DNA from: an uncultured Gammaproteobacteria bacterium
GTDB taxonomy: Bacteria > Patescibacteriota > Microgenomatia > Levybacterales > UBA12049
NCBI GenBank assembly: GCA_964408485.1
Contig: CAYOZJ010000004.1
Span: forward strand, 8,685 to 72,684
Direction of reading: 5' to 3'
DNA length: 64,000 bases
Positions 27,196-49,190 of this stretch are shown in pieces (positions within the stretch are counted from its first letter, which is position 1; each line of letters opens with the position of its first letter). Position numbers and translations under genes: made by a program. The notes under the pieces are model-generated. The model ran no database searches. It had not been told where the DNA came from and worked only from the letters and a program-made list of their open reading frames with translations.

Positions 27196-27196
27196 A

Positions 27197-35811: not shown

Positions 35812-36735
35812 ATGAATTTATTTAAGCACTTATTTCTTCCGGCATTTTCCAACAATCAACGTGCCAAACTTATCCATAGCCAGGTTATTTTCTTTGTTGT
35901 TTTGCTTCTCGGCGTAGCGTCTTTTGCTATTAGTATTGGAAAGACGCAGTATAAAAGTGTCTTAGGAGTTAGTGTTAATGTCTCTTCGTCAGATTTACTT
36001 GCTCAAACCAATCAAGATAGAATTAATGCAGGTCTTAAGCCACTTGCCTTAAATACACAGCTTTCCGGCGCAGCAGAGGCAAAGGCGCAAGATATGTTTG
36101 CCAAAAACTATTGGGCGCATTTTGGCCCAAATGGAGAAAGTCCGTGGGATTTTATTCATTCGGCAGGGTATAACTATATTTACGCAGGGGAAAATTTAGC
36201 GCGTGGATTTACCTCAAGCACAGATGTAGTGAATGCATGGATGGCAAGTCCTGAACATAGGGCAAATATGCTATCTAATAACTATACCGATGTCGGATTT
36301 GCTATAGAGGAGGGTCGACTTCCAGGTGACAGCAATACTGTTTTGGTTGTTGAGATGTTTGGGAGCACGAATGTCGTTGCAAAGTCAAATGTCCCACCAG
36401 TTGTTGTGCCGCAGGTAACAGAAGCGCCTGTAGCGGTAAGTTCTCCAGCAGGTAAAATTGCTGCTATACCATCCTCAGTTCCTGCTCAGCTAAAGCCAAG
36501 TATTGCACCAGTCTTGTCTGCAGTAAAAAATCAACCAATTTTTGACAGCGCATTTTATTCAAAAGTGCTTAGTCTTTCGCTTTTGTCACTTTTTGTTGTC
36601 ATCTTTGGTATGGATGTTGTGCTTACTGAAAGCAAAAAAACAATTCGTCTTGCCGGACATAGTTTTGACCATTTGCTTTTCCTTATCGCAATTCTTCTTA
36701 TTGCAGTAACATTGGGATTGGGGGTTGTTGGTTAG
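35812..36735 (+). CDS. CAP/SCP-domain (YkwD-like) secreted protein with Pro/Val-rich linker and C-terminal TM
   Basis: NQDRINAGLKPLALNTQLSGAAEAKAQDM, YWAHFGP and YAGENLARGF CAP motifs. Confidence 0.75.
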   Translation: MNLFKHLFLPAFSNNQRAKLIHSQVIFFVVLLLGVASFAISIGKTQYKSVLGVSVNVSSSDLLAQTNQDRINAGLKPLALNTQLSGAAEAKAQDMFAKNYWAHFGPNGESPWDFIHSAGYNYIYAGENLARGFTSSTDVVNAWMASPEHRANMLSNNYTDVGFAIEEGRLPGDSNTVLVVEMFGSTNVVAKSNVPPVVVPQVTEAPVAVSSPAGKIAAIPSSVPAQLKPSIAPVLSAVKNQPIFDSAFYSKVLSLSLLSLFVVIFGMDVVLTESKKTIRLAGHSFDHLLFLIAILLIAVTLGLGVVG

Positions 36736-36991
36736 TATGAAAAAACATTTAGGATACTATGTTTCATTTCTTGTAATTTGTTTTGCTGGAATCTTTCTTG
36801 TTTTTCAGAATAATGGGGACAAAAATCTTATTATTGAATTTGTTAGTCTTTTTGCGCTGTCATATATTGTGTGGGGATTGTTGCATCATTTGGTACATCA
36901 CAGCGTGACTTTACGGATTGTGATAGAATACATTGTCGTAGCGCTTCTTGGCGTTGCAGTTATTTTCTTTATCCTTAACGGAGGAGTATAA
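36725..36991 (+). CDS. Small 3-TM membrane protein (88 aa)
   Basis: Hydrophobic profile only. Confidence 0.35.
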   Translation: MLVSMKKHLGYYVSFLVICFAGIFLVFQNNGDKNLIIEFVSLFALSYIVWGLLHHLVHHSVTLRIVIEYIVVALLGVAVIFFILNGGV

Positions 36992-36998
36992 TTACTAT

Positions 36999-37733
36999 AT
37001 GAAAGGCGTTATTTTAGCTGGTGGACTTGGAACAAGACTATATCCTTTAACCTACGTTACCAACAAACATCTTCTTCCCGTGTATGACAAGCCAATGATT
37101 TTTTATCCAATTCAGACTCTGGTAAATGCAGGAGTAAAGGAAGTCCTTATTGTTACCAGTGGTCCTCATGTTGGTCACTTTTTAAGTGTATTAAAAAACG
37201 GAAAAGAGTTAGGACTTGATCACTTGGAATATGCATATCAAGAAAAGCCAGATGGAGGAATTGCTGATGCGCTTTCTTTGGCAAGAGATTTTGCAGATGG
37301 AGATAGTGTTGCGGTTATTTTGGGAGACAATACAACAGATGCAGATATTGCACCAGCTGTAAAAGGTTTTACAGAAGGCGCAATGGTTTTCTTGAAAGAC
37401 GTACCAGATGCACATCGCTTTGGCGTTGCTGTTTTTGATGAAAAAGATCCATCTCAGGTTATTGCAATCGAAGAAAAACCTAAGCAACCGAAGAGTAGTA
37501 TGGCAGTGACAGGGGTATATCTATATGACCATCATGTTTTTGAAATGATTAAAAATCTTAAGCCATCAGACAGAGGAGAACTGGAGATTACTGATGTAAA
37601 TAATGAATATATTAGTAAAAAGCAACTCCACTGGGCAGAGCTTAAGGGTTTTTGGTCGGATGCAGGCACATTTAAAAGTCTATATAGATCAAATAGATAT
37701 TGGGCTCAAAAAATGGAAAAAGACCTCATGTAA
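36999..37733 (+). CDS. rmlA: Glucose-1-phosphate thymidylyltransferase-like sugar nucleotidyltransferase (RmlA family, short form). Start at 36999 with GGAGG SD.
   Basis: ILAGGLGTRLYPLT signature. The ORF opens at 36948, but an SD-ATG pair is at 36999. Confidence 0.8.
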   Translation: MKGVILAGGLGTRLYPLTYVTNKHLLPVYDKPMIFYPIQTLVNAGVKEVLIVTSGPHVGHFLSVLKNGKELGLDHLEYAYQEKPDGGIADALSLARDFADGDSVAVILGDNTTDADIAPAVKGFTEGAMVFLKDVPDAHRFGVAVFDEKDPSQVIAIEEKPKQPKSSMAVTGVYLYDHHVFEMIKNLKPSDRGELEITDVNNEYISKKQLHWAELKGFWSDAGTFKSLYRSNRYWAQKMEKDLM

Positions 37734-37738
37734 TTTTC

Positions 37739-38281
37739 ATGGATACGCAAAAAATACTTTCCTCACAGGTTGTTTTTAAAGCAAAATTGTTTGATGTCAA
37801 AGAAGAAGTCTTAGAAGATCACAATAAAAAAATCCACACATTCCATACCGCGTATGAAAAACCGGCAGCAGGTGTTATTCCGCTTACTCCAAAAGGTGAG
37901 GTAATTCTTATTGATCAGTATCGATATGTTTTTGGAAAAAGAATATTGGGAATGATTGCAGGATTTATAGAAGATGGAGAGACTTCTCTGCAAGCTGCCA
38001 AAAGGGAGCTTAAAGAAGAAACAGGTATTGTTGCAGGACAGTTTGAGTTATTGGCAAAAGCAGAGCTTGCGAGAAGCGTTGCGACACAAACCTATTACAT
38101 ATTTTTAGCAAAAGACCTAGAAATTGGAGAGGCTCATCCTGACAGTGATGAGGATATTCGAGTTGTCCGAATGCCGCTTGCGGATGCAGTAGCAAAAGTT
38201 ATGAATGGAGAAATCTACCATTCTCCAAGTATGACTGCTATACTAATGCTTGATAAGTTAAAAAAGGAGAAAAAAATATAG
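37739..38281 (+). CDS. NUDIX hydrolase (ADP-ribose or nucleotide-sugar pyrophosphatase-like)
   Basis: Nudix box GFIEDGETSLQAAKRELKEETGI. Confidence 0.75.
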   Translation: MDTQKILSSQVVFKAKLFDVKEEVLEDHNKKIHTFHTAYEKPAAGVIPLTPKGEVILIDQYRYVFGKRILGMIAGFIEDGETSLQAAKRELKEETGIVAGQFELLAKAELARSVATQTYYIFLAKDLEIGEAHPDSDEDIRVVRMPLADAVAKVMNGEIYHSPSMTAILMLDKLKKEKKI

Positions 38282-38350
38282 TGTCATTCTGGCTTGTCCA
38301 GAATCTAGATCCTGGATGCACTACGCTTACCAGGATGACTGTTTAAAATT

Positions 38351-39373
38351 ATGAAATTACTTGTAACAGGTGGAGCAGGGTTTATTGGCAGCAATTTTAT
38401 TTTGTATTGGATGAAAAATCATCCGGAAGACGAAGTAGTCAATTTTGATAAATTAACCTACGCTGGGAATCTAGAAAATTTAAAAGCAGTTGAACATCTT
38501 CCAAATTATTCATTTATACGGGGTGATATTTGTGATGCTATTGCCGTTGAAAATGCAATGCAAGGCATAGACTTTGTTGTCCATTTTGCTGCAGAGTCTC
38601 ATGTGGATAGAAGCATTATGAATCCTTCAGATTTTGTTGAGACAAATGTCGGAGGAACACAAGTGTTGCTGGATGCAGCTCTTAAAGCGAATATAAAACG
38701 ATTTCATCATGTATCAACAGATGAAGTATTTGGTGCGCTAGAGGTAGGTTCGTCTGATCGATTTAACGAATCAACTTCATACAATCCTCATAGTCCGTAT
38801 TCTGCAAGTAAGGCTGGATCTGATCATTTAGTGAGAGCATACGCAGATACATACGGACTTCCAATAACCATTACGAATTGCTCAAATAATTTTGGTCCAT
38901 ACCATTTCCCCGAAAAAATAATACCTCTTGCGATTACTAATGTGTTGGAAGAAAAAAAAGTACCAATCTATGGAGACGGGTTATATGTGCGGGATTGGTT
39001 GCATGTAGAGGATCATGCGCGCGCAATAGAAGCAGTACTTCTTAAGGGAAAAGAGGGGGAAACGTATTGTGTAGGAGGGCTTAAAAAGGGTGCCGCAGAA
39101 ATAAATAATTTAGAAGTTGTAAAAGAAATTTTACGCATCTTAGATAAAGATGAAAGTTATATTGAACTTGTCAAAGATAGACCAGGACATGACAGGCGGT
39201 ATGCGATTGATTGGAGTAAAATTCATACCGAATTAGGATGGGAGCCATTGCATGATTTCTCAGAATGGTTAGAGCGGACAGTCCAGTGGTACAAAAATAA
39301 TGAGTCGTGGTGGAAAAATGTAAAGAATGGAAGTTATGAAGAATACTATAAAAAGCAATATGAACAAAGGTAA
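38351..39373 (+). CDS. rmlB: dTDP-glucose 4,6-dehydratase
   Basis: TGGAGFIGSNF, YSASK catalytic motif and NCSNNFGPYHFPEKIIP. Confidence 0.9.
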   Translation: MKLLVTGGAGFIGSNFILYWMKNHPEDEVVNFDKLTYAGNLENLKAVEHLPNYSFIRGDICDAIAVENAMQGIDFVVHFAAESHVDRSIMNPSDFVETNVGGTQVLLDAALKANIKRFHHVSTDEVFGALEVGSSDRFNESTSYNPHSPYSASKAGSDHLVRAYADTYGLPITITNCSNNFGPYHFPEKIIPLAITNVLEEKKVPIYGDGLYVRDWLHVEDHARAIEAVLLKGKEGETYCVGGLKKGAAEINNLEVVKEILRILDKDESYIELVKDRPGHDRRYAIDWSKIHTELGWEPLHDFSEWLERTVQWYKNNESWWKNVKNGSYEEYYKKQYEQR

Positions 39374-39734
39374 TAATGGAAAATACTTCTTTGGAAATAT
39401 AAAAGACAACCTTAAAGAAAACGGTTGGTTTTTTGGTCACTTCATGGATAATCCGCTCCTTAATTCAAAAGATGTAGAAGTTGCATGGCAGGATATTTCC
39501 AATAAACAAATCGAAGTAAAAGATAAGCACACTCATAAAGTTGCTGTTGAAATAAATATTATTCTCTCGGGTGCAATTCATTTAACAATGGATGGAAAAG
39601 AATTTACCGTTAAAGGCGGAGAGTTTTATGTTGTCTATCCCAATGTTGTTGTTGACAAGGTTTGGGCAGAAGACAATACGGTTGATCTTTGCATAAAAGC
39701 GCCAAGTATTCCGGGAGATAAATATTATTTATGA
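39327..39734 (+). CDS. Small cupin-like protein (candidate sugar 3,5-epimerase or isomerase replacing RmlC, speculative). Start may be the ATG at 39360.
   Basis: Beta-rich sequence with H..H..E pattern (KHTHKVAVEINIILSG..H). Located between rmlB and rmlD. Confidence 0.4.
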   Translation: MEVMKNTIKSNMNKGNNGKYFFGNIKDNLKENGWFFGHFMDNPLLNSKDVEVAWQDISNKQIEVKDKHTHKVAVEINIILSGAIHLTMDGKEFTVKGGEFYVVYPNVVVDKVWAEDNTVDLCIKAPSIPGDKYYL

Positions 39735-40216
39735 TTAATTGTACTTTTGAAGATGGTGGGAAAGCCAACCCTGGACTTCGGCACGTTACAGTTGGAGTCA
39801 TTGCATATAATGACAAAAACCAAGTTTTACTCGTGAGACGTTCTGCAAAATATAGTAGACCCAATACATGGACTGTTCCCGGTGGCTTTTTAGATAGAGA
39901 CAGAACAATAAAAGAAGCTATTCTAAAGGAATTACGTGAAGAAACAGGTATGTCGGGTGAGATTCAGCAATTATTTCATGTTAATGATTATCCCGATAGA
40001 CCAAATGAAGATAGACAGAATGTGGATTTTATTTTTCTGGTAAAAGTTGATGGGGGTAGTTTTTCTCATGATGATGAAATTACAAATATACAATGGTTTG
40101 ATAAAAATACGTTGCCAAATGAAAAAGAGTTTGCTTTCGATCATCACGCAACTATTCTAAAGTTTTTTGAATACATGGGGCATCCATTCACATTGCCACT
40201 TATTGGAAAAATATGA
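39731..40216 (+). CDS. NUDIX hydrolase
   Basis: Nudix box GGFLDRDRTIKEAILKELREETGM. Confidence 0.75.
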   Translation: MINCTFEDGGKANPGLRHVTVGVIAYNDKNQVLLVRRSAKYSRPNTWTVPGGFLDRDRTIKEAILKELREETGMSGEIQQLFHVNDYPDRPNEDRQNVDFIFLVKVDGGSFSHDDEITNIQWFDKNTLPNEKEFAFDHHATILKFFEYMGHPFTLPLIGKI

Positions 40217-41085
40217 AGATTATTGGAACAGGACTTTCAGGACTTGTTGGTTCGAGAATTGTTGAGCTGTTAAGTCCAGAATTTGAATTTGAAGATATTT
40301 CTCGCAAAACAGGAACAGATATTACAGACAAAGAAGCTGTATTAACGCGTCTGCAAAAATCAGATGCAAAATTTGTTGTGCATATGGCAGCATATACACA
40401 AGTTGATGAAGCAGAGAAAGATAAAGATCTCAAAGAAAATAGTGCTGCATGGAAAATAAATGTTGCTGGGACTAGGAATGTTGTGGAGGCTGCGGAAAAG
40501 ACGGGTAAACATATTGTGTATGTCTCAACTGACATGGTTTTCCCAGGTACTAAAAATCGACCAGAAAGATATAGCGAAGAAGACGAGACAAATCCTGTTG
40601 GATGGTATGCAATAACAAAAGCTGAGGCAGAAAAAGTAGTTGAGCAATCTTCAGTTCCCTGGACCATTCTTCGTATTGCGTACCCTTACCGTGCAAATTT
40701 TGAAAAAAAGGAATATGTACGGATTTTTAAATGGCTTCTTGAAGAAAAACGGGAAATAAAAGCAGTTGCAGATCATTTCTTTACACCAACATTTATCGAT
40801 GACCTGAGCCAAGTTTTCTCACTGATTTTTAAGCAAAATCTTACCGGAATCTATCACGCGGGAGGGCATACTAGTATTAGTCCGTATGAGGCAGCACTTG
40901 CTGTTGCAAAGGAATTTGGTCTTGATGCATCTCTTGTTAGTAAAACAACGAGAGAGGAGTATTTTGCAGGAAAAGCACCAAGAGCCTTTAATTTAGCGCT
41001 TAATAGTGATAAAATAGAGTCCTTAGGAGTCAAAATGCGTGGATTTGAAGAAGGGTTAAGAGAAATCAAAAAGCAGATTGGCTAA
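40213..41085 (+). CDS. rmlD: dTDP-4-dehydrorhamnose reductase-like (RmlD family SDR)
   Basis: N-terminal GTGLSGLVGSRI, YVSTDMVFPG and YAITK catalytic motif. Confidence 0.7.
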   Translation: MKIIGTGLSGLVGSRIVELLSPEFEFEDISRKTGTDITDKEAVLTRLQKSDAKFVVHMAAYTQVDEAEKDKDLKENSAAWKINVAGTRNVVEAAEKTGKHIVYVSTDMVFPGTKNRPERYSEEDETNPVGWYAITKAEAEKVVEQSSVPWTILRIAYPYRANFEKKEYVRIFKWLLEEKREIKAVADHFFTPTFIDDLSQVFSLIFKQNLTGIYHAGGHTSISPYEAALAVAKEFGLDASLVSKTTREEYFAGKAPRAFNLALNSDKIESLGVKMRGFEEGLREIKKQIG

Positions 41086-41161
41086 GAATAATTTCTCAGT
41101 TGTCAGTTCTCAATTTTCATTGAATTGAATAATGATCATTGAATCATTTATTGAAAACTGG

Positions 41162-41200
41162 AAATCGCCGCTTCGGCGAAGCTAGTACCCTTGGGGTAGT
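41162..41200 (+). repeat. Family B short repeat (AATCGCCGCTTCGGCGAAGCTAGTACCCTTGGGGTAG), 18 nt upstream of the ugd ATG
   Basis: Matches 15727-15770 and the core of 8992-9068. Confidence 0.5.
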
Positions 41201-41217
41201 AAATTGAAAACATCATT

Positions 41218-42528
41218 ATGACTATAACATTTCTTGGACATGGTTATGTAGGGTTAGTAACAGCAGCAGTTTTTGCCGATCTTGGCAATAAAGTGTGGGT
41301 TATTGGTCACACAAAAGAAAAAATTGAAAACCTTAAAAATGGTATTCTCCCAATCTATGAACCAGGACTTGAAGAATTGGTTGTTCGTAACGTAAAAGCA
41401 GGACGTCTCTTATTTACTCTTGATTACAAACCAGCAATTCCAGAATCAGACGTTGTCTTTATTGCGGTAGGTACACCACCGAAGCCAACAGGAGAAGCAG
41501 ATTTATCTGTTGTTTTTGAGGTTGCAGAAAAAATTGGTCAAAATTTAGATGGATATACAGTTGTTATAACAAAAAGCACTGTGCCAGTTGGGACAAATAA
41601 AAAGGTTGGGGAGATTTTGGCAAAAGTAAAACCTGCTAAGGCTGAATTTGATATTGCATCCTGTCCGGAATTTTTGCGGGAAGGTCAGGCAATTGGAGAC
41701 ACCCAGCATCCCGATAGAGTTGTTATTGGAGCAGATAGTAAGCGAGCAGAAGAGAAATTAGTTGAGCTCCATAAGCCAATTTTAGAGGGAAATGGAAAAT
41801 CAAAATTAGTTTTAACAAATATTTCTACAGCAGAAATGATTAAGTATGCATCGAATGCATTTTTAGCAACAAAGATTAGTTTTGCTAATGCAATTGCCCA
41901 ACTCTCTGAAAAAGTCGGTGCAGATGGTCCAGACGTCCTTACGGCAATTGGGCTTGATAAACGAATTGGAACATACTTCTTAAATGCAGGAGCAGGATAT
42001 GGTGGAAGCTGCTTTCCAAAAGATGTAAAAGCACTTATTGCAATAGCCGGAGAAAATGGATATGACTTTAAGCTCTTAAAAGATGTTGAGGAAGTAAATA
42101 AAGAAGCAATGCATGCTGTTGCAAAAAAAGTTAAAAAACTTCTTGGAGATGTAAAAGGAAAGCGAGTCGGCGTATTGGGTCTTACCTTTAAGCCGGATAC
42201 CGATGACATGCGCGATGCGCCAAGCAGGACAGTCTTGCCGGAGCTCTTAAAAGATGGGGCAAGTGTGGTCGCATTTGATCCTATTGCAACGAATGCAAAT
42301 AAGAAATTTCCAGAATTAGCAGGACTGGAAATGGCAAAAGATGCATACGATGTTGCAAAAAACGCGGATATTTTAGTTGTTATGACAGAATGGAACGAAT
42401 TTAAGCAAATGGATGTTGAGAAAATAAAATCGCTCATGAAATCCCCAGTAGTTGTTGATGGACGAAATATGTTTGACGCAAAGCAAATGCGTTCTCTTGG
42501 ATTTACCTATGTTGGTGTTGGAAGATAA
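41218..42528 (+). CDS. ugd: UDP-glucose 6-dehydrogenase
   Basis: GHGYVGL NAD-binding, catalytic GGSCFPKD and the C-terminal UDP-binding domain. Confidence 0.9.
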   Translation: MTITFLGHGYVGLVTAAVFADLGNKVWVIGHTKEKIENLKNGILPIYEPGLEELVVRNVKAGRLLFTLDYKPAIPESDVVFIAVGTPPKPTGEADLSVVFEVAEKIGQNLDGYTVVITKSTVPVGTNKKVGEILAKVKPAKAEFDIASCPEFLREGQAIGDTQHPDRVVIGADSKRAEEKLVELHKPILEGNGKSKLVLTNISTAEMIKYASNAFLATKISFANAIAQLSEKVGADGPDVLTAIGLDKRIGTYFLNAGAGYGGSCFPKDVKALIAIAGENGYDFKLLKDVEEVNKEAMHAVAKKVKKLLGDVKGKRVGVLGLTFKPDTDDMRDAPSRTVLPELLKDGASVVAFDPIATNANKKFPELAGLEMAKDAYDVAKNADILVVMTEWNEFKQMDVEKIKSLMKSPVVVDGRNMFDAKQMRSLGFTYVGVGR

Positions 42529-42780
42529 TTACTTTTTAGCATTTGCAAGCCAAGTCCGATAATCTCTTTCCGCATCCATTGCTCTTCGTACCTCATAATC
42601 TGCTCTTAATTGAGATCCTCCTCTTCTGACTAACGTTTGTATCGCACTTGCATGCTTATGACTCATCCGCGCCTCATCATTTCTTGAAACATATGCCATA
42701 ATGCTAAGAGCATAAATCTTTAAAGTAAAAGATGCAATAGTTTATTGTTCAATTTTCTCAAACCTGCTAGAATCGAAGTA

Positions 42781-43737
42781 ATGAAAAAAGTTCTCATAAC
42801 TGGCGCATCGGGATTTGTTGGAACCCATTTAGCACAACATCTTCTTAGCATAGGTGGAGCAGAAATTCATGGAACCTATTTGACCGATGAGAGTATGCAG
42901 CGCTCTTTGGTAAAAGATCAAATAACCTTCCATAAGGTAAATCTTCAAGATAAAAATCAAACAGACCAACTTATTAAAGACGTCATGCCTGACGAGGTGT
43001 ATCATTTGGCAGCGAATGCGCTGGTTACAGTGAGTTTTTCAGATCCATTGGGGACATTTCATAATAATGTTGATCCACAAGTTAACTTATTTGAAAGTTT
43101 GCGAGCTAATAATCTCTTGCAGACAAAGATTTTGATTACGTGTTCTTCAGAAGAATATGGATTTATTGATCCGAAAGATTTGCCAATGAATGAGAATACA
43201 TCTCTTCGTCCAGCAAATCCGTACGCTGTATCAAAAGTAGCACAGGATTTTTTTGGACTTCAATATTTTATTGCCTACAAAATGCCAATTATTCGAGTAC
43301 GATCGTTTACTCATGTAGGGCCAGGACAAGCACCTGGGTTTGTTGTTGCTGATTTTGCCAAACAAATAGCAGAAATAGAAAATGGTAAAAAAGAACCATT
43401 GATAAAAGTTGGGAATATGGAGACAAAAAGAGATTTTACCGATGTCCGTGATATGGTGCGCTTATACTATTTACTCATGGAAAAAGGAGTTGCAGGTGAC
43501 GTATATAATGCAGGATCTGGTGTATCACACGTTATTAGTAGTGTCATGGACCAGCTCATTCACTTGTCCAATACTTCAATAACACTTGAGAAAGATCCAT
43601 CTAAATTCAGGCCGGCAGATGTACCAGAAATCCGTGCAGATATTTCAAAAACGCAAGAAATTACCGGATGGAAGCCGGAAATTCCTTTTGAGAAAACTCT
43701 AAAAGATACTCTAGACTATTGGCGAAAAATTGTTTAG
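42781..43737 (+). CDS. rmd: GDP-4-keto-6-deoxy-D-mannose reductase-like (Rmd) SDR epimerase/dehydratase family
   Basis: ITGASGFVGTHL and PYAVSKVAQD...RVRSFTHVGPGQ resemble Rmd. The adjacent gmd supports GDP-D-rhamnose synthesis. Confidence 0.65.
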   Translation: MKKVLITGASGFVGTHLAQHLLSIGGAEIHGTYLTDESMQRSLVKDQITFHKVNLQDKNQTDQLIKDVMPDEVYHLAANALVTVSFSDPLGTFHNNVDPQVNLFESLRANNLLQTKILITCSSEEYGFIDPKDLPMNENTSLRPANPYAVSKVAQDFFGLQYFIAYKMPIIRVRSFTHVGPGQAPGFVVADFAKQIAEIENGKKEPLIKVGNMETKRDFTDVRDMVRLYYLLMEKGVAGDVYNAGSGVSHVISSVMDQLIHLSNTSITLEKDPSKFRPADVPEIRADISKTQEITGWKPEIPFEKTLKDTLDYWRKIV

Positions 43738-43754
43738 AATTTAATAATTGAATT

Positions 43755-44723
43755 ATGGCAAAACAAGCATTGATTACTGGTATTACTGGACAGGACGGAC
43801 CATATTTAGCAGAGCTTCTTCTTAAAAAAGGCTACAAGGTATACGGATTGACTCGAAGACTCAGTATCCCCAATACAGAAAATATTAAAGATCTTATTGA
43901 TAAGATAGAACTTATTTCTGGAGATTTACTTGACCAAGGGTCACTTCAAGATGCAATAGAAGAGTCCGAACCAGATGAAGTATACAATCTAGCAGCACAA
44001 TCTTTTGTTAAAGCCTCCTGGAATCAACCAGTGTTAACTGGTGAATTTACTGCACTTGGTGCAACAAGAATGCTTGAGGCAATCAGAACAGTTAATAAAA
44101 AAATAAAATTCTACCAAGCATCTTCTTCGGAAATGTTTGGAAAAGTAGTAGAAGTTCCGCAAAAAGAAACAACAAGATTTTATCCACGAAGTCCATACGG
44201 TGTTGCAAAAGCATATGCACACTACATGACAGTAAATTATCGGGAGAGTTATGACATGTTTGCCTGCTCAGGAATTCTTTTTAATCATGAGTCTCCACGA
44301 CGAGGCATAGAATTTGTTACCAGAAAAATTTCTAATGCTGTTGCAAGAATTCATTTGGGTAAACAAGAAATTCTTGAGTTGGGAGATCTTCGTCCAAAGC
44401 GGGATTGGGGATTTGCAGGTGACTATGTTGAGGCAATGTGGCTTATGCTCAATTACAAGCAGCCTGATGATTATGTTGTTGCAACGGGTGAGACACATAG
44501 TGTAGAAGAATTTGTTGAGCTCGCATTTAAGGTTGTTGGGATTACAGATTGGAAAAAATATGTTAAGGCAAATCACCCCAAACACATGAGACCAGCAGAG
44601 GTGGATCATTTGATTGGTGATCCAACCAAAGCACAAAAGGTATTAGGATGGAAAAGAAGTGTAAGTTTTCCTCAACTTGTAGAAATGATGGTAAAGGCAG
44701 ATTTGGAAAGAGAAAGTAAATAA
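43755..44723 (+). CDS. gmd: GDP-mannose 4,6-dehydratase
   Basis: ITGITGQDGPYLAELLL, SSSEMFG, YGVAKAYAHY and FNHESPRRG. Confidence 0.9.
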   Translation: MAKQALITGITGQDGPYLAELLLKKGYKVYGLTRRLSIPNTENIKDLIDKIELISGDLLDQGSLQDAIEESEPDEVYNLAAQSFVKASWNQPVLTGEFTALGATRMLEAIRTVNKKIKFYQASSSEMFGKVVEVPQKETTRFYPRSPYGVAKAYAHYMTVNYRESYDMFACSGILFNHESPRRGIEFVTRKISNAVARIHLGKQEILELGDLRPKRDWGFAGDYVEAMWLMLNYKQPDDYVVATGETHSVEEFVELAFKVVGITDWKKYVKANHPKHMRPAEVDHLIGDPTKAQKVLGWKRSVSFPQLVEMMVKADLERESK

Positions 44724-44726
44724 TGT

Positions 44727-45689
44727 ATGCAGACAGTATACGTTGCTGGGGGAGCAGGATTTATCGGCTCCAATCTCTGCAAAAGACTTCTTGATGACGG
44801 CTACGCAGTTATTTGTATAGATAATCTTGTTACCAGCTCAGAAAGTAATATTACAAAGCTAGAAAAAAATCCCAATTTTCATTTTATTAATGCTGATGTT
44901 ACGAATTTTACTGAGTCAACATTTGCAACGTTTTCAAAGCCTGATTTTATTTTTCACTTAGCATCTCCTGCCAGCCCAAATAAGAATGGGAAACGGTCTT
45001 TTATTGCGCTCCCTATCCAAACGCTTTTAGCAAATACACTCGGAACATATAAATTGCTTGAACTTGCCAAAGCTGCAAATGCACGACTTCTTTTTGCTTC
45101 AACCTCCGAAGTATATGGTGATCCAGAGGTAAGTCCACAACCTGAAACATACTGGGGGAATGTCAATCCTAATGGAGTTAGGTCTGTGTATGATGAAGGA
45201 AAGCGAGCAGGAGAAGCATTTGTCATGGGGTATGTGAGAAAATATGGTTTGGACGGGCGAATTGTGAGAATTTTTAATACATATGGTCCAAATATGCAGG
45301 AAGATGATGGTCGCGTTGTCTCTAATCTTATCTTACAAGCGCTCAAGAGCGAACCATTAACAATTTATGGCGATGGGAGTCAGACACGAAGCTTTTGTTA
45401 TATAGACGATTTGGTAGAAGGATTAGTGCGATACATGTTTGCAGACGGGCTACAGGGCGAGGTAATTAACATTGGAAATCCGGGCGAGAAATCTATTGCA
45501 GATTTTGCTACGATAATAAAAGAGATCACTGGTACCGCGTCTGAGATTGTTTATGAAGACCTACCAGAAGACGATCCAAAAAAGCGTAAACCAGATATTA
45601 CAAAGGCAAGAAAACTTTTAGACTGGGAGCCAAAAGTTGGTCTTGACGAAGGAATTAAGAGAACAATAGAGTATTTTAAAGCACGATGA
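44727..45689 (+). CDS. uxs: UDP-glucuronate decarboxylase (UDP-xylose synthase)
   Basis: YDEGKRAGEAF, RIFNTYGPNM and DGRVVSNLILQA closely match UXS family blocks. Confidence 0.85.
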   Translation: MQTVYVAGGAGFIGSNLCKRLLDDGYAVICIDNLVTSSESNITKLEKNPNFHFINADVTNFTESTFATFSKPDFIFHLASPASPNKNGKRSFIALPIQTLLANTLGTYKLLELAKAANARLLFASTSEVYGDPEVSPQPETYWGNVNPNGVRSVYDEGKRAGEAFVMGYVRKYGLDGRIVRIFNTYGPNMQEDDGRVVSNLILQALKSEPLTIYGDGSQTRSFCYIDDLVEGLVRYMFADGLQGEVINIGNPGEKSIADFATIIKEITGTASEIVYEDLPEDDPKKRKPDITKARKLLDWEPKVGLDEGIKRTIEYFKAR

Positions 45690-46810
45690 AAATAGTTGTT
45701 GTACCAGCTACCTATAACGAAAAAGAGAATATTGAAAAATTTATTCCCCTTGTGATGGATGAAGTTTTCCCCAAAATAAAGGGTCACGATATGGAGATTT
45801 TAGTTGCAGATGACGAATCTCCGGATGGTACAGGTGATGCGGTCAAGGCTCTCATGAAAAAGTATAAAAATCTGGGACTCAATTCTGGCCCAAAAAAGGG
45901 ATTAGGAGCTGCCTATATTCGTGCCATGACCTATGCAATAGAGCATCTTCATGCAGATGCGGTCATGAGTATAGATGCAGATTTACAGCACGATCCTCGT
46001 GAAATTCCTCATTTTGTAAAAAAGTTAGAAGAGGGATATGACATTGTGGTTGCAACTCGATATAGTCAGGGTGGGTCTATTCCGCAAAATTGGCCACCTC
46101 AACGAAAACTATTTTCCATAATGGGCAATATTATCGTTAGATGCATTACTGGTAGATTTGGTATTCATGATTGGACAGGTGGATTTCGTGCAGTAAAGAG
46201 CGAGGTTTTTATGAAAGAGAGAAGTAAAGTAATGCCTTTCCAAGGGTACACATTTCAGGTTGCCTTTTTGTATAAATCTGTTTTGGATGGGTACAAGATA
46301 GGGGAAGTACCAATTCACTTTATGGACAGGACGCTCGGAAGGTCTAAAATTGCACCGTTAGAATATATTATTAATCTTTTAAAATATGTTATTGGTGAAA
46401 GAATTCATGAACTTGTTACCGGATCCTTTGGAAAGTTTTTAGTTGTTGGAGGGTTGGGATTTGTGATTAATGCAGTGGTGCTTCGCCTTTTAGTAAATCT
46501 TGCTCATTGGGATCCTACATTTGCCAATTTAGGAGGTGCAGCTCTTGCTATTTTTTCTAATTATAATTTTAACAATTTGTGGACATTTAAGGAGCATAAG
46601 ATTAATGGGTTTGGGCAATATCTATGGAAAATGCTGCAATTTTACGCAACATCTGCATTCGGTGTTATTTTTATCCAGACCGGAACAATCTTTCTCCTCG
46701 ATCATCTATTTGGAACAAAATACTATTTCTACTATTTCCTTCTTGGAACTTTCTTTATTCTCATTTGGAATTATACAATTTATAATAAATTTATCTGGAA
46801 GAAAAAATAA
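45686..46810 (+). CDS. GT2 polyprenol-phosphate sugar synthase (Dpm1/Ppm1/ArnC-like) fused to a C-terminal GtrA-like 4-TM domain
   Basis: ATYNEKENI, DDESPDGTGD, DADLQHDP GT2 motifs. C-terminal hydrophobic GtrA-like region. Confidence 0.8.
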   Translation: MKIVVVPATYNEKENIEKFIPLVMDEVFPKIKGHDMEILVADDESPDGTGDAVKALMKKYKNLGLNSGPKKGLGAAYIRAMTYAIEHLHADAVMSIDADLQHDPREIPHFVKKLEEGYDIVVATRYSQGGSIPQNWPPQRKLFSIMGNIIVRCITGRFGIHDWTGGFRAVKSEVFMKERSKVMPFQGYTFQVAFLYKSVLDGYKIGEVPIHFMDRTLGRSKIAPLEYIINLLKYVIGERIHELVTGSFGKFLVVGGLGFVINAVVLRLLVNLAHWDPTFANLGGAALAIFSNYNFNNLWTFKEHKINGFGQYLWKMLQFYATSAFGVIFIQTGTIFLLDHLFGTKYYFYYFLLGTFFILIWNYTIYNKFIWKKK

Positions 46811-46880
46811 TTTCACTTTATTCTTCGAACGAAGTGAGAAGTTCTCCCTTTAGTTCTCGCCTTGCTCGAACAATAATCAT

Positions 46881-48452
46881 ATGTTCAAAAAATTATTTAC
46901 CAAAACAAACCTTTTGCTCATAGGCATTATACTTCTCGCTTCATTTCTCAGGCTTTATAAAATCCAAGATTATTTGACATTTTTGGGGGATGAGGGACGG
47001 GACATGTTGGTTGTGTACAACATTTTGCACGGACATCCAACACTCCTTGGGCCAACAGCAAGCGTTGGAGGGTTTTTCTTAGGACCAATTTATTACTACT
47101 TCATGGTGCCATTTGTGTGGGTTGCTGGAGGTAACCCTGTTGGGTCGGCAATAATGGTCGCGCTTTTTGGCATTGCTACCGTGTGGCTGACGTACTTTGT
47201 TGGATCTAAATTTTTTAATACGCCTTCAGGACTTGTGGCTGCACTTCTCTACGCTGTGAGTCCTCTCATTATTACCTATTCAAGGTCTTCTTGGAATCCC
47301 AACCCAATGCCATTTTTTGTGTTGTCTCTTTTATACTTTTTGTACCTGGGATTAGAAAAGAAAAATTGGAAATATATTCTTTTCTCTGGAATATTTTTGG
47401 GGATCGCAATGCAACTTCATTATTTAGCAACGTTTGTTGGGGTTATTGTTTTTCTGTACATTCTTTTTGATTCGCTTTATGATTTGATTACGAAATCGAT
47501 TAGAGGTTTGGGCTTTATATATAACCTAACTATACGCTATACGCTATACGCTATTGGCTTTATTCTAGGGTGGTCGCCATTTCTCGCATTTGAAGCGCGT
47601 CATGGATTTAATAACATTCGGGCAATTGTTGATTTTATTTTTCACTCCAAAGAAACAGGAGGAGGAGATATGTATAACGAAATTATCGGCAATGTTTTCT
47701 TTAGAGTATTTGGGAGAATAGTTACCGCTTTCCCTCCACCGGAAAATGTTAATATTCATACTCATCCAGAACTTTCTGTATGGTTTTATGGGACTCTTGT
47801 CGTTGCCATTTTGTCACTTCTTCTCTTAGCATACCTTTTGGTAAAAAACCTTAAAAATAGAAATAAATTTTTGCAGTACAGTCTCCTTGGCTTATGGCTT
47901 GCAGGCGGAGTTTTTCTTTTTGGATTTTATAAAAAACAAATTTATGATTATTATTTTTCATTTTTATTTCCGTTGCCAATTCTTATAGTGGGTGCTGCGA
48001 TAGGATGGACATTTACTAAGAAAATTTGGGTGAAAAGCATTGGTGCTATATTGCTCTTAACGTTACTTATCCTAAATCTTATTAACGAGCCAATACTTCT
48101 TCCTGCAAATCATCAAATGCAACAGGTTGCAGGAATTGCAAGAAAAGTTTTTGATGAGGCGCATGGTAAGCCGTTTAACTTCGCATTAATAACAGGAGGT
48201 AATTCAGATCACGCATATAGATATTTCCTAACAATTTGGGGCAATCCACCAGTTACTATTTTAAATCCAGATGTAGATCCGAAGAGAAAGTCAGTGACAG
48301 ATCAATTGCTTGTTGTCTGCGAAGAGTTGCCATGTCATCCAGAAGGCGCATCACTGTGGGAGGTTGCGGGATTTGGTAGAGCGCAAATTGTAGGAGAGTG
48401 GAATGTGAGTGTTGTACAAGTCTATAAGCTGCAGCACTATACAGGGAAATAA
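46881..48452 (+). CDS. GT-C fold glycosyltransferase of the PMT/ArnT type (GT39/GT83-like), ~12 TM
   Basis: First-loop acidic motif LGDEGRD. Multi-TM N-terminal region with a periplasmic C-terminal domain. Follows the polyprenol-P-sugar synthase. Confidence 0.7.
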   Translation: MFKKLFTKTNLLLIGIILLASFLRLYKIQDYLTFLGDEGRDMLVVYNILHGHPTLLGPTASVGGFFLGPIYYYFMVPFVWVAGGNPVGSAIMVALFGIATVWLTYFVGSKFFNTPSGLVAALLYAVSPLIITYSRSSWNPNPMPFFVLSLLYFLYLGLEKKNWKYILFSGIFLGIAMQLHYLATFVGVIVFLYILFDSLYDLITKSIRGLGFIYNLTIRYTLYAIGFILGWSPFLAFEARHGFNNIRAIVDFIFHSKETGGGDMYNEIIGNVFFRVFGRIVTAFPPPENVNIHTHPELSVWFYGTLVVAILSLLLLAYLLVKNLKNRNKFLQYSLLGLWLAGGVFLFGFYKKQIYDYYFSFLFPLPILIVGAAIGWTFTKKIWVKSIGAILLLTLLILNLINEPILLPANHQMQQVAGIARKVFDEAHGKPFNFALITGGNSDHAYRYFLTIWGNPPVTILNPDVDPKRKSVTDQLLVVCEELPCHPEGASLWEVAGFGRAQIVGEWNVSVVQVYKLQHYTGK

Positions 48453-48526
48453 AATATTTAACCCATTCGATAAGCTCAGGGATAAAATATTTTTTCCTGA
48501 GCGAGCAAAGCGAGTCGAAGGATAAT

Positions 48527-48667
48527 ATGAACCCACAAGATTATAGTTTGAGAAAAGATTTACGAACTCAACTGTGTCCTGTCTGTACGTCTCCAATGGG
48601 TGATATGCCAGGAAGTAGAGATGCTTATTGTTCTAACTGCGGCTACAAAGATCCGTGTTGTGAATAA
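48527..48667 (+). CDS. 46-aa zinc-ribbon micro-protein (CPVC...CSNC)
   Basis: Two CxxC pairs. ATG sits directly after a family A-type repeat that supplies an AAGGA SD-like sequence. Confidence 0.4.
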   Translation: MNPQDYSLRKDLRTQLCPVCTSPMGDMPGSRDAYCSNCGYKDPCCE

Positions 48668-48672
48668 TTGAC

Positions 48673-48942
48673 TTAAAATCGTGGAGGAACTTTAGGTTTT
48701 CTTCTTAAGTTTGCCAATAATTCTCTTGCCGCTTTTACTTCTCGAGCAGTAAATCTTCCCAGTTCATCAGGGTGTTCATTGAGAGCATTAGCAATTTCCT
48801 GAGCTGATAATCGTTTCCTTTTTTCTTCGATATGGCGAGATCCAGAATTTTTATCAAATCGACCTACTGCCTTTATTTTCGTTATATAGAGCTCATTTCT
48901 TTCACTGGCAGATAATGGAGCTAAGGTATCACCTTTGCGCAT
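48673..48942 (-). CDS. Hypothetical 89-aa basic/helical protein
   Basis: ORF only. Confidence 0.35.
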   Translation of the reverse strand: MRKGDTLAPLSASERNELYITKIKAVGRFDKNSGSRHIEEKRKRLSAQEIANALNEHPDELGRFTAREVKAARELLANLRRKPKVPPRF

Positions 48943-48993
48943 ATATGCATTTTACCACAAAGGCAATCTATCTGAGTTTTTCCCATACAAAAA

Positions 48994-49030
48994 CCCCCGC
49001 CTTCAAATGAGAATTAGCGAGGGGGTTTTT
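48994..49030. terminator. GC-rich hairpin flanked by A5 and T5 (AAAAACCCCCGC...GCGAGGGGGTTTTT), bidirectional-terminator-like
   Basis: Seen directly. Located downstream of the minus-strand micro-ORF 49047-49190. Confidence 0.45.
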
Positions 49031-49046
49031 GATATGCAATTGGCGC

Positions 49047-49190
49047 TTATGCACCAATTTTAAACATGCCTGTGCCACAAACTGGACACTTAGCTTTCTT
49101 TGCATGTTTGCCGTTTTTCATAACGACATCTTCTGCATCTTCAACATCTCTCTTAGCTCGGCATTTTACGCAATACATTGTTACTGTCAT
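49047..49190 (-). CDS. 47-aa zinc-ribbon micro-protein MTVTMYCVKCRAKRDVEDAEDVVMKNGKHAKKAKCPVCGTGMFKIGA (DUF5679-like pattern) with a strong SD
   Basis: CxxC...CxxC, SD GAAGGGGGGTGAAATACC then ATG. Not in the ORF track because it is under 60 aa. Confidence 0.45.
   Translation of the reverse strand: MTVTMYCVKCRAKRDVEDAEDVVMKNGKHAKKAKCPVCGTGMFKIGA

What the first reader, a model, noticed from the sequence alone, without database searches (positions are those of the whole stretch)
36999..48452. Twelve-gene nucleotide-sugar island ending in a Ppm1-like GT2 plus PMT/ArnT-like GT-C pair: candidate protein O-glycosylation (or lipid-linked pentose/deoxyhexose transfer) system
A contiguous same-strand run: rmlA-like, NUDIX, rmlB, a cupin (candidate epimerase in the position where rmlC would be expected), NUDIX, rmlD, ugd, rmd, gmd and uxs. 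Two glycosyltransferases follow directly. The first is a GT2 polyprenol-phosphate-sugar synthase fused to a GtrA-like flippase-associated domain. The second is a 12-TM GT-C enzyme with the first-loop DE motif of PMT/ArnT enzymes. In Actinobacteria the Ppm1 plus Pmt pair O-mannosylates Pro/Thr-rich secreted proteins. This window also encodes a signal-peptide protein with a long PT-rich linker and C-terminal anchor (33396-34256), and a CAP-domain protein with a Pro-rich linker (35812-36735). These are plausible acceptors. The precursor set (dTDP-L-Rha, GDP-D-Rha, UDP-GlcA/UDP-Xyl) and the two NUDIX pool-control enzymes suggest a more elaborate glycan than simple mannosylation. The gmd-rmd-NUDIX arrangement recalls the gmd-fcl-gmm trio of colanic acid clusters.
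Basis: inference. Interest (0 to 1): 0.6.

Follow-up and report, generated by a model that had tools for sequence, protein, structure and literature searches.

The report
Conserved CPR surface-sugar transfer gene cluster
This is a real, strongly conserved gene cluster of uncultured Levybacteria-type (candidate phyla radiation) bacteria that makes several activated sugars and ends in a lipid-linked sugar transfer pair, a known kind of machinery whose sugar and target here remain unknown.

Summary
Twelve same-strand genes at 36999-48452 encode an rmlA-like enzyme, two NUDIX proteins, RmlB, a small cupin, an RmlD-like reductase, Ugd, Rmd, Gmd, Uxs, a GT2 fused to a GtrA-type membrane domain, and a GT-C enzyme.

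The window comes from a Levybacteria-like Patescibacterium. In 64 species-level relatives the GT2-GtrA gene lies directly upstream of the GT-C gene in 64 of 64. rmlB, ugd, rmd, gmd and rmlD are present in 60-63, and uxs in 55.

The cupin occurs in 1 of 64 clusters and gives no RmlC family match. No rmlC is in the window. Neither NUDIX matches GDP-mannose hydrolase.

The GT2 is closest to Pyrococcus dolichyl-phosphate-mannose synthase. The mannose-contacting lysine is replaced.

[quoted passage not shown] Protein O-glycosylation of Pro/Thr-rich proteins is possible but untested. Sister lineages carry arrays of GT-C paralogues with a Wzx flippase, which leans towards envelope glycan assembly.

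Verdict: a new member of a known kind, of moderate interest.

The parts
35812..36735 (+). CAP/YkwD-like membrane protein with a Pro-rich linker. It is a conserved upstream neighbour whose role is unknown; it could be a partner or an acceptor.
   Evidence: PF00188 at 1e-20 and YkwD/DalA-like. Present in 49 of 64 related loci, a count limited by the 10-kb flank. Also present upstream of the GT genes in Amesbacteria and other Microgenomates loci.
36725..36991 (+). 88-aa small membrane protein with about 3 hydrophobic segments. Its relatives carry a weak DUF5656 hit. Conserved between the CAP gene and rmlA.
   Evidence: No Pfam hit in the window copy. Hydropathy. Homologue present in 45 of 64 loci and in L089-L091. 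Weak DUF5656 hit in relatives.
36999..37733 (+). Short-form sugar-1-phosphate nucleotidylyltransferase, RmlA-like.
   Evidence: PF00483 at 1e-55. TIGR01207 scores 236 bits, below the cut-off of 361. 70% identical to the Amesbacteria copy.
37700..38281 (+). NUDIX hydrolase 1, NudE/ADP-sugar-pyrophosphatase-like.
   Evidence: PF00293. NudE scores 92 bits, below 169. A NUDIX1-type gene is present in 29 of 64 loci.
38351..39373 (+). dTDP-glucose 4,6-dehydratase RmlB.
   Evidence: TIGR01181 scores 474 bits, above 365. Present in 63 of 64 loci.
39327..39734 (+). Small cupin of unresolved function and a lineage-specific insertion. Candidate roles are sugar-phosphate isomerase or nucleotide-sugar isomerase.
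39731..40216 (+). NUDIX hydrolase 2, MutT-like. Variable accessory gene.
   Evidence: PF00293 at 7e-23. Below all curated cut-offs. A NUDIX2-type gene is present in 12 of 64 loci.
40213..41085 (+). RmlD-like nucleotide-sugar 4-ketoreductase.
   Evidence: PF04321 at 6e-59. TIGR01214 scores 173.5, below 224. PDB 3sc6 at 8e-32. Present in 60 of 64 loci.
41218..42528 (+). UDP-glucose 6-dehydrogenase (Ugd).
   Evidence: Three UDPG_MGDP_dh domains. TIGR03026 scores 470, above 190, and TuaD-like scores 535. Present in 63 of 64 loci.
42745..43737 (+). GDP-6-deoxy-D-lyxo-4-hexulose reductase (Rmd), which makes GDP-D-rhamnose.
   Evidence: PDB 2pk3 at 2.9e-77 and 6x3b at 4e-48. Present in 62 of 64 loci.
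43755..44723 (+). GDP-mannose 4,6-dehydratase (Gmd).
   Evidence: TIGR01472 scores 429, above 415. Present in 61 of 64 loci. In 9 of the 80 genome loci fetched, a minus-strand copy stands in its place; it is 49% identical in the two loci where identity was measured.
44727..45689 (+). UDP-glucuronate decarboxylase (Uxs), which makes UDP-xylose.
   Evidence: Human UXS1 (4gll, 2b69) at 2e-95. Present in 55 of 64 loci. Its stop codon overlaps the GT2 start by 4 nt.
45686..46810 (+). Polyprenyl-phosphate glycosyltransferase (GT2) fused to a GtrA-type 4-TM domain. This is the type-III-DPMS-like architecture.
   Evidence: PF00535 and PF04138. PDB 5mlz at 3.6e-35, against ArnC at 4e-15. D97, D99, R125, R140 and S144 are invariant in 80 orthologues; PfDPMS K178 aligns to Thr or Ile. 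Lies upstream of the GT-C in 64 of 64 loci.
46881..48452 (+). GT-C fold glycosyltransferase (PMT_2) with an invariant D37-E38 in the first outside loop and a family-specific C-terminal alpha/beta domain with an invariant Cys pair.

Best explanation
The locus is the core envelope-glycosylation cluster of a Levybacteria-like (Microgenomates, CPR) bacterium.

Ten enzymes supply three activated-sugar branches:
- dTDP-glucose to dTDP-4-keto-6-deoxyglucose to a dTDP-6-deoxyhexose, through RmlA-like, RmlB and RmlD-like enzymes.
- UDP-glucose to UDP-glucuronate to UDP-xylose, through Ugd and Uxs.
- GDP-mannose to GDP-D-rhamnose, through Gmd and Rmd.

- The GT2 domain loads one monosaccharide from a nucleotide sugar onto polyprenyl phosphate at the cytoplasmic face.
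- Its fused GtrA-type four-helix domain is the likely route for the lipid-linked sugar to the outer face.
- The GT-C enzyme then transfers the sugar to an extracytoplasmic acceptor, using the loop-1 Asp-Glu.

Shown here: the family and fold assignments, conservation of the catalytic and phosphate-binding residues, and strict gene linkage.

Inferred: the donor sugar and the acceptor.
- My leading donor guess is GDP-D-rhamnose, ahead of UDP-xylose or UDP-glucuronate.
- I think the acceptor is more likely a wall- or membrane-anchored glycan, built by Leloir transferases encoded elsewhere, than a bare protein.
- Protein O-glycosylation is not excluded.
For: GT2 evidence:
- It aligns to Pyrococcus furiosus DPMS over residues 1-329 at E 3.6e-35.
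- The DxD pair (D97, D99) and the dolichyl-phosphate-binding R125, R140 and S144 are invariant in 80 orthologues.
- The GtrA-pocket Asn248 equivalent is N or Q.
- PMC12992685 reports crystallographic evidence that this type of TM domain may flip the product.

GT-C evidence:
- D37 and E38 are invariant.

Linkage evidence:
- GT2-GtrA lies directly upstream of the GT-C in 64 of 64 species-level loci. rmlB, ugd, rmd, gmd and rmlD are present in 60-63 of 64.
- In 9 loci the plus-strand gmd is replaced by an inverted copy, 49% identical where measured. So a GDP-4-keto-6-deoxymannose supply is kept at the locus.
- In Amesbacteria and other Microgenomates, the closest GT-C relative is fused to a GT2 domain. 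It sits beside a GT2-GtrA gene, further GT-C paralogues, GT2s and a Wzx-type flippase.

Other support:
- An undecaprenyl-diphosphatase (BacA) gene is in the window.
- The general scheme matches the systems reviewed in PMC8035078.
Against: - No biochemical data exist for any family member, so donor sugar and acceptor are unassigned.
- No Leloir glycosyltransferase, polymerase, ligase or Wzx flippase lies in the 64-kb window. The link between the ten sugar genes and the GT pair therefore rests on conserved adjacency alone.
- CPR genomes have long co-directional gene runs in a syntenic housekeeping region. Adjacency could partly reflect frozen gene order rather than a shared pathway.
- uxs is missing in 9 of 64 loci and rmlD in 4, without any correlated change in GT2 residues.
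- The GT2 fused to the GT-C in sister lineages is a different paralogue (29% identity) from the window's GT2-GtrA. The fusion supports GT2-to-GT-C coupling in general, not this exact pair.
Confidence: 0.7

Rival explanations
1. Protein O-glycosylation in the manner of Ppm1/Pmt or the streptococcal Pgf system. The GT-C would attach the lipid-linked sugar to Ser/Thr in Pro/Thr-rich linkers of secreted or anchored proteins. Candidates are the 33396-34256 protein, the CAP protein, pilins or S-layer proteins.
For: - There is an invariant Asp-Glu in loop 1, as in PMTs.
- The GT2 matches PgfS as well as it matches ArnC, at 58 versus 59 bits.
- Pro/Thr-rich and Pro-rich membrane-anchored proteins lie within 3-13 kb.
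- The CAP gene is a conserved neighbour across Microgenomates.
Against: - The GT-C gives no PF02366 or PMT_4TMC match.
- ALG12, AglB and ArnT match its fold as well as or better than PMTs do.
- Loop-1 acidic motifs are general to GT-C enzymes (PMC8035078).
- The Pro/Thr-rich gene is separated from the cluster by tsaE, sua5 and a tsaB-like gene. A homologue was seen in only one related locus, although the 10-kb flank limits that view.
- Sister lineages show multi-GT-C arrays with a Wzx flippase, which is more typical of glycan assembly.
- A rich deoxyhexose, pentose and uronate supply is not needed for simple mannosylation.
Confidence: 0.3
2. The sugar genes and the GT pair are only neighbours. 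The GT2 would use a common donor not made by the cluster, such as GDP-mannose, UDP-glucose or UDP-GlcNAc. The ten sugar genes would feed cytoplasmic Leloir transferases encoded elsewhere.
For: - The GT2 is most similar to a GDP-mannose-using DPMS.
- Most characterised GT2/GtrA/GT-C systems transfer Glc, Gal or GlcNAc (PMC8035078).
- Loss of uxs or rmlD in some loci leaves the GT pair unchanged.
- The whole region is a frozen housekeeping synteny block.
Against: - The linkage is strict, at 64 of 64.
- uxs and the GT2 overlap by 4 nt.
- gmd is retained at the locus even when replaced by an inverted paralogue.
- The mannose-contacting Lys178 of PfDPMS is Thr or Ile in 76 of 80 orthologues, Ala or Leu in three, Arg in one, and never Lys.
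Confidence: 0.25
3. An Arn-like lipid modification. Ugd, a UXS/ArnA-like decarboxylase, an ArnC-like GT2 and an ArnT-like GT-C would add a pentose to a membrane lipid, by analogy to lipid A modification with Ara4N.
For: - The order ugd, uxs, GT2, GT-C resembles ugd-arnA-arnC-arnT.
- ArnC and ArnT appear among the sequence and structure matches.
- Some sources name the family 'Ara4N transferase-like'.
Against: - ArnC scores 59 bits against a cut-off of 529, and there is no ArnT model hit.
- No ArnB aminotransferase, formyltransferase or ArnD is present.
- Uxs matches true UDP-xylose synthases at 2e-95, against ArnA at 5e-27.
- uxs is dispensable in 9 of 64 loci.
- From general knowledge, CPR bacteria lack lipid A. 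No lpx genes were found in the window.
Confidence: 0.05

Closest known systems
Multi-component (three-component) transmembrane glycosylation systems of Gram-positive bacteria: CsbB/GtcA/YfhO, GtlA/GtcA/GtlB, GacI/J/K/L, CsdAB (review PMC8035078)
   Same: It has a GT-A/GT2 polyprenyl-phosphate sugar synthase, a GtrA-type membrane module and a PMT_2-type GT-C with an acidic outside-loop motif. The genes are adjacent.
   Different: - The synthase and the GtrA module are one polypeptide here.
- The GT-C belongs to a CPR-specific family with its own C-terminal domain.
- The pair is embedded in a ten-gene nucleotide-sugar operon.
- Sugar and acceptor are unknown.
Type-III dolichyl-phosphate mannose synthase of Pyrococcus furiosus (PDB 5mlz; PMC12992685)
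   Same: It has the same GT2 plus GtrA-like 4-TM architecture, and this is the best sequence match to a solved structure (E 3.6e-35). The DxD pair, the phosphate-binding Arg/Arg/Ser and the TM-pocket Asn are conserved.
   Different: - The host is bacterial and mesophilic (CPR). The paper's strict motif definition finds type III only in archaea, and reports those that fit as hyperthermophiles.
- The mannose-contacting Lys178 is Thr or Ile.
- Gln93 varies within the family.
- The donor is unknown.
Actinobacterial Ppm1/Pmt and fungal PMT (GT39) protein O-mannosylation
   Different: - It has no PMT (PF02366) or PMT_4TMC domains.
- It has no MIR domain.
- The GT2 is not fused to an Lnt-like domain as in mycobacterial Ppm1 (general knowledge).
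- Sequence identity is 12-15%.
ArnC/ArnT (GT83) lipid A Ara4N pathway
   Different: - There are no amino-sugar tailoring genes.
- It scores far below the Arn equivalog cut-offs.
- The host presumably lacks lipid A.
Streptococcus mutans Pgf system (PgfS GT2, PgfM1/PgfM2 GT-C, PgfE epimerase)
   Same: It combines a GT2 and GT-C with a nucleotide-sugar-modifying enzyme, and that system modifies surface adhesins. The GT2 N-terminus matches the PgfS model at 9e-16.
   Different: - The match covers only residues 1-132 and scores 58 bits against a cut-off of 500.
- There are no collagen-binding adhesin acceptors here.
- The sugar set is much larger.

Membership tests
Multi-component transmembrane glycosylation system | Membrane-associated GT-A/GT2 enzyme with a DxD motif and polyprenyl-phosphate-binding residues | tested here: met
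   PF00535 scores 78.7 bits. D97, D99, R125, R140 and S144 align to PfDPMS D89, D91, R117, R131 and S135, and are invariant in 80 orthologues.
Multi-component transmembrane glycosylation system | GtrA-type small multi-helix membrane module | tested here: met
   PF04138 scores 55.2 bits, above 26.1, over residues 250-371 and is fused to the GT2.
Multi-component transmembrane glycosylation system | GT-C fold transferase with an acidic motif in an extracytoplasmic loop, genetically linked to the GT2 | tested here: met
Multi-component transmembrane glycosylation system | Demonstrated polyprenyl-phosphate sugar intermediate and modified acceptor | not testable with these tools
   This needs biochemistry or glycan analysis.
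GT39 protein O-mannosyltransferase (PMT/Pmt) | PMT N-terminal domain (PF02366) and C-terminal PMT_4TMC (PF16192) | tested here: not met
   Only PMT_2 (PF13231) and a weak, sub-threshold PspC transmembrane-region (PF22571) hit were reported at E<=0.01. A few homologues carry weak precomputed PF02366 hits.
GT39 protein O-mannosyltransferase (PMT/Pmt) | Asp-Glu motif in loop 1 | tested here: met
   D37 and E38 are invariant in 37 sequences. The feature is not specific to GT39.
GT39 protein O-mannosyltransferase (PMT/Pmt) | Closer in structure to PMTs than to other GT-C families | tested here: not met
GT83 ArnT / ArnC pathway | Scores above the ArnC and ArnT equivalog cut-offs, with arnA/B/D tailoring genes present | tested here: not met
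   ArnC scores 59 bits against 529, and there is no ArnT hit. No aminotransferase, formyltransferase or deformylase is in the cluster.
Type-III DPMS (PfDPMS) | Single chain with a GT2 catalytic domain plus a GtrA-like TM domain, with conserved metal and phosphate site | tested here: met
Type-III DPMS (PfDPMS) | Mannose-contacting Lys178 and metal-site Gln93 | tested here: not met
   Lys178 aligns to Thr in the window. Across 80 orthologues the position is T 53, I 23, A 2, L 1, R 1, never K. Gln93 is Q in only 42 of 80.
dTDP-L-rhamnose pathway (RmlABCD) | RmlB above the equivalog cut-off | tested here: met
   TIGR01181 scores 474, above 365.
dTDP-L-rhamnose pathway (RmlABCD) | RmlC 3,5-epimerase (PF00908) present | tested here: not met
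   No PF00908 hit in the 64-kb window: all non-shadow ORFs of 120 aa or more were scanned. None is in the called genes of three Levybacteria loci. It is present in a Microgenomates sister locus, L090. The rest of the genome could not be searched.
dTDP-L-rhamnose pathway (RmlABCD) | RmlA and RmlD above the equivalog cut-offs | tested here: inconclusive
   RmlA scores 236 against 361 and RmlD 173.5 against 224. Both are clear family members but fall below the equivalog thresholds.
GDP-D-rhamnose pathway (Gmd + Rmd) | Gmd equivalog plus a reductase closest to characterised Rmd | tested here: met
   Gmd scores 429, above 415. Rmd matches 2pk3 at 2.9e-77 and 6x3b at 4e-48, ahead of all dehydratases.
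UDP-xylose pathway (Ugd + Uxs) | UDP-glucose dehydrogenase plus a decarboxylase closest to UXS rather than ArnA | tested here: met
   Ugd: TIGR03026 scores 470, above 190. Uxs matches human UXS1 at 2e-95, against ArnA at 5e-27.
GDP-mannose mannosyl hydrolase (Gmm/NudD) | A NUDIX protein matching the NudD/Gmm model and adjacent to gmd | tested here: not met
   No such family appears among the hits at E<=1e-5. NUDIX1 is NudE-like and NUDIX2 is MutT-like. Neither gene is adjacent to gmd or rmd.

The most novel reading that the evidence does not exclude
Levybacteria may use a bacterial, self-flipping type-III-DPMS-like enzyme to make a lipid-linked rare sugar, polyprenyl-phosphate D-rhamnose or xylose. 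To my knowledge neither donor has been established in bacteria. A CPR-specific GT-C would then place that sugar on surface proteins or an envelope glycan that shapes episymbiont-host contact. In the same reading, the cluster makes its dTDP-6-deoxyhexose without RmlC. That would mean either a bifunctional RmlD-like epimerase/reductase or a D-configured product such as dTDP-D-fucose or dTDP-quinovose.
Probability: 0.15. Interest if true: 0.6.

Novelty: new member of a known kind. Interest (0 to 1): 0.35.

Why it matters
Almost nothing is known experimentally about surface glycans of CPR/Patescibacteria. Their tiny genomes nevertheless keep this roughly 12-kb cluster intact across at least 64 Levybacteria species. 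Related, expanded versions occur in other Microgenomates. This marks the locus as a core determinant of the cell surface, and hence of attachment, phage recognition and host interaction.

It gives concrete and cheap targets for heterologous biochemistry: one GT2-GtrA enzyme, one GT-C enzyme and defined candidate donors. It also extends the type-III DPMS architecture, recently described as archaeal, to bacteria. It does not reveal a new mechanism.

Tried and rejected
1. Sequence search of the GT-C against solved structures gave no hit at E<=10, so fold comparison was needed.
3. The AFDB50 Foldseek library was unavailable.
4. The cupin could not be resolved. Sequence gave only Cupin_2 and a weak match to a mannose-6-phosphate isomerase entry at E 0.0075. 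Fold matches were generic: FdtA 9.8, a phosphomannose isomerase 9.2, a 'dTDP sugar isomerase' 9.1. Genomic contexts were mixed.
5. I tried to infer the donor sugar from covariation between uxs presence and GT2 residues 101, 189 and 262. There was no correlation.
6. Promoter and terminator scans gave no usable operon boundaries. Promoter-like sites were at the chance level.
7. Rfam and tRNA scans of the window found nothing.
8. Exact look-up of the window's GT-C gene returned no contig record.
9. Literature searches found no description of this cluster in Microgenomates or Levybacteria. The Saccharibacteria pili preprint concerns host rhamnose, not CPR glycosylation.
10. The lipid A (Arn) reading was rejected for lack of Arn-specific genes and scores.

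Full report
**Observation**

The region 36999-48452 carries twelve tightly packed + strand ORFs. Most junctions overlap or are under 70 nt. The larger gaps are 41085-41218 and 42528-42745.

- The rmlA-like nucleotidylyltransferase is clear but sits below the RmlA equivalog cut-off (236 against 361 bits).
- RmlB (474 against 365) and Gmd (429 against 415) are above their cut-offs.
- The RmlD-like reductase is below its cut-off (173.5 against 224).
- There is a UDP-glucose dehydrogenase, two NUDIX proteins and a 135-aa Cupin_2 protein.

Searches against solved structures support the 'rmd' and 'uxs' assignments by close similarity.
- The first matches Aneurinibacillus GDP-6-deoxy-D-lyxo-4-hexulose reductase 2pk3 at 2.9e-77.
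- The second matches human UDP-glucuronate decarboxylase at 2e-95, far ahead of ArnA at about 5e-27.

The last two genes are a GT2 fused to a GtrA/DPMS transmembrane domain and a PMT_2 membrane protein.

The Pro/Thr-rich anchored protein and the CAP protein read as described.

**Origin and context**

GC content is about 38%. The GT-C has more than 3000 close homologues, named, where named at all, from Patescibacteria and Levybacteria.

A scan of one genome per species returned 494 relatives. The best 80 are Levybacteria, Microgenomates or unclassified Patescibacteria assemblies wherever the record titles are credible. Many titles read 'uncultured Gammaproteobacteria' and are evidently mislabelled.

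The rest of the window is housekeeping: SecA, SerRS, FtsEX, a PcsB-like protein, TsaE, Sua5, a TsaB-like fragment, RF2, SecDF, RecJ, AspRS and a D-Ala-D-Ala carboxypeptidase. It also holds BacA (undecaprenyl-diphosphatase) and four EamA transporters. It contains no other glycosyltransferase, no Wzx/Wzy and no RmlC.

**Conservation**

I assigned each window protein to its best non-overlapping tblastn match in every fetched locus. Sixty-four species-level loci have at least 9.9 kb of sequence upstream of the GT-C. Among them:

| Gene | Loci with the gene (of 64) |
|---|---|
| GT2-GtrA, directly upstream of the GT-C | 64 |
| rmlB | 63 |
| ugd | 63 |
| rmd | 62 |
| gmd | 61 |
| rmlD | 60 |
| uxs | 55 |
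| rmlA (limited by the flank) | 54 |
| CAP (limited by the flank) | 49 |
| NUDIX1-type | 29 |
| NUDIX2-type | 12 |
| cupin | 1 |

In nine of the 80 loci the plus-strand gmd is replaced by a minus-strand copy. That copy is 49% identical in the two loci where identity was measured. So the function is retained at this position even when the gene is exchanged.

The core is therefore a ten-gene unit, and it is certainly not a chance arrangement. It is preceded by the CAP gene and an 88-aa membrane protein.

**The cupin and the rhamnose branch**

The cupin is a lineage-specific insertion. Only 18 homologues exist in 5.8 billion proteins. At about 50% identity they lie after PGK and GAPDH, or beside RecR.

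It has an invariant H-x-H-x4-E motif. It gives no RmlC or FdtA family hit.

The idea that it replaces RmlC is therefore unsupported, and its function stays open.

No RmlC is found in the window or in three inspected Levybacteria clusters. A Microgenomates sister locus does carry one. So the product of the dTDP branch cannot be called L-rhamnose with confidence.

Neither NUDIX matches GDP-mannose mannosyl hydrolase, and neither is next to gmd.

**The GT2-GtrA protein**

Its best solved relative is Pyrococcus furiosus dolichyl-phosphate mannose synthase. The match is 3.6e-35 over residues 1-329. ArnC follows at about 4e-15 and Synechocystis GtrB at 3e-10.

I mapped the residues that PMC12992685 lists and checked them in 80 orthologues.
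- The DxD aspartates (D97, D99) are invariant.
- The three dolichyl-phosphate ligands (R125, R140, S144) are invariant.
- The TM-pocket Asn248 equivalent is N or Q.
- The mannose-contacting Lys178 is Thr or Ile, never Lys.
- Gln93 is variable.

The same paper argues that the GtrA-like domain may flip the product. It also states that strictly defined type-III DPMS occurs only in archaea. The Levybacteria enzyme shares that architecture but fails the strict residue definition.

**The GT-C**

No solved structure matches it by sequence. An AlphaFold model built from 37 homologues is confident, with pLDDT 85.8 and pTM 0.86.

The model shows TM1, then a first outside loop whose helix begins at the invariant G36-D-E-G-R-D41. 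About 12-13 membrane helices follow, with a long conserved loop at 242-295. The protein ends in a C-terminal alpha/beta domain with invariant C480 and C485.

It lacks the PMT (PF02366) and PMT_4TMC domains and gives no ArnT model hit. It is neither a demonstrable GT39 nor a GT83 member.

**Sister lineages**

An exhaustive representative search found 427 cluster representatives at E<=1e-30. Several are 710-740-aa proteins. Seven of the eight examined are GT2-GT-C fusions. These belong to Amesbacteria, Woesebacteria and other Microgenomates.

Their loci keep the CAP gene, the small ORF and a separate GT2-GtrA gene that is 36-39% identical to the window's. They then add the fusion, whose GT-C part is 35-36% identical over its full length. 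Two to three further PMT_2/PMT proteins follow, with extra GT2s, a PTPS_related membrane protein and a Wzx-type flippase.

The fused GT2 is a different paralogue, at 29% identity. The fusion therefore shows that this GT-C family works with a polyprenyl-phosphate sugar synthase, without proving the exact pairing here. Multi-GT-C arrays with a Wzx flippase resemble extracytoplasmic glycan assembly more than single-step protein mannosylation.

**Mechanism**

[quoted passage not shown] Its synthase and GtrA module are fused, and three nucleotide-sugar branches supply it.

Shown:
- Folds and families.
- Conserved catalytic residues.
- Strict gene linkage.

Inferred:
- That the donor is one of the cluster's own sugars. 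My order of preference is GDP-D-rhamnose, then UDP-xylose or UDP-glucuronate, then a dTDP-6-deoxyhexose. This rests on the DPMS-like GT2, the replaced mannose-contact lysine, the retention of gmd and rmd, and the dispensability of uxs.
- That the acceptor is an envelope glycan or glycoprotein.

An attempt to read the donor from covariation of GT2 residues with uxs presence failed.

**Comparison and novelty**

The system works like the CsbB/GtcA/YfhO, GacI-L, Ppm1/Pmt, Pgf and ArnC/ArnT systems. It is not a demonstrable member of the GT39 or GT83 families.

No paper in the searchable library describes it. It is an uncharacterised family-level member of a known kind of machinery. Its main interest is as a core, experimentally tractable surface-glycan locus of a large uncultured lineage.

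Noticed in passing
L089 10001-12184; L090 10001-12196; L091 10001-12202 (proteins P0295, P0398, P0312): In Amesbacteria, Woesebacteria and other Microgenomates, the closest relatives of the window's GT-C are single polypeptides of about 730 aa. They fuse an N-terminal GT2 domain to the GT-C. They are followed by two to three more PMT_2/PMT proteins, extra GT2s, a PTPS_related protein and a Wzx-type flippase.
   Followed up: partly
window 33396-34256: A protein with a signal-anchor, a roughly 70-residue Pro/Thr/Ser-rich linker and a C-terminal TM anchor. It has no Pfam or NCBIfam hit. A 36%-identical homologue sits in the same position, upstream of tsaE, in L018. It is a candidate glycoprotein, but nothing links it to the cluster beyond proximity.
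   Followed up: partly
L020, L021, L027, L034, L052, L056, L061, L064, L077 (gmd position): In nine of the 80 Levybacteria loci, the plus-strand gmd (about 75% identical to the window's) is replaced by a minus-strand gmd. That copy is 49% identical in the two loci where identity was measured (L020, L061). This is an apparent in-place replacement by a paralogue.
   Followed up: no
window 12291-13136, 13141-14004 (-), 20236-21189, 26338-27237 (-): Four EamA-family (drug/metabolite or nucleotide-sugar-type) transporter genes lie within 15 kb. That is notable for a reduced genome.
   Followed up: no
window 19470-20267: A BacA/UppP undecaprenyl-diphosphatase gene (PF02673, 7e-64). It is consistent with a polyprenyl-phosphate carrier pool.
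   Followed up: no
window 22332-22739: A 135-aa '23S rRNA intervening sequence protein' with a bAvd-like hit. This family serves as an accessory protein in diversity-generating retroelements. No reverse transcriptase was seen nearby.
   Followed up: no
window 35491-35787: A 98-aa ORF matches only part of the TsaD/TsaB fold (PF00814, profile positions 30-82). Relatives conserve it as a protein of about 100-117 aa. It looks like a miniaturised TsaB-like protein next to tsaE and sua5.
   Followed up: no
L009-L088 record titles: Many assemblies with Levybacteria-type gene order are titled 'uncultured Gammaproteobacteria bacterium', and one 'Candidatus Eisenbacteria'. The taxonomic labels in those records appear unreliable.
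   Followed up: no
window 14633-16762 (-): A 709-aa protein in which only the N-terminal ~100 residues match a family, an HAD/sucrose-6-phosphate-phosphatase-like domain. The remaining ~600 residues have no family match.
   Followed up: no
window 48453-49657: A 1.2-kb stretch after the GT-C holds only small ORFs of 81-94 aa on both strands. Relatives carry variable genes here, including isochorismatase, a phosphoribosyltransferase, a NUDIX protein and a squalene/phytoene synthase-like gene. This marks the downstream end of the conserved cluster.
   Followed up: partly
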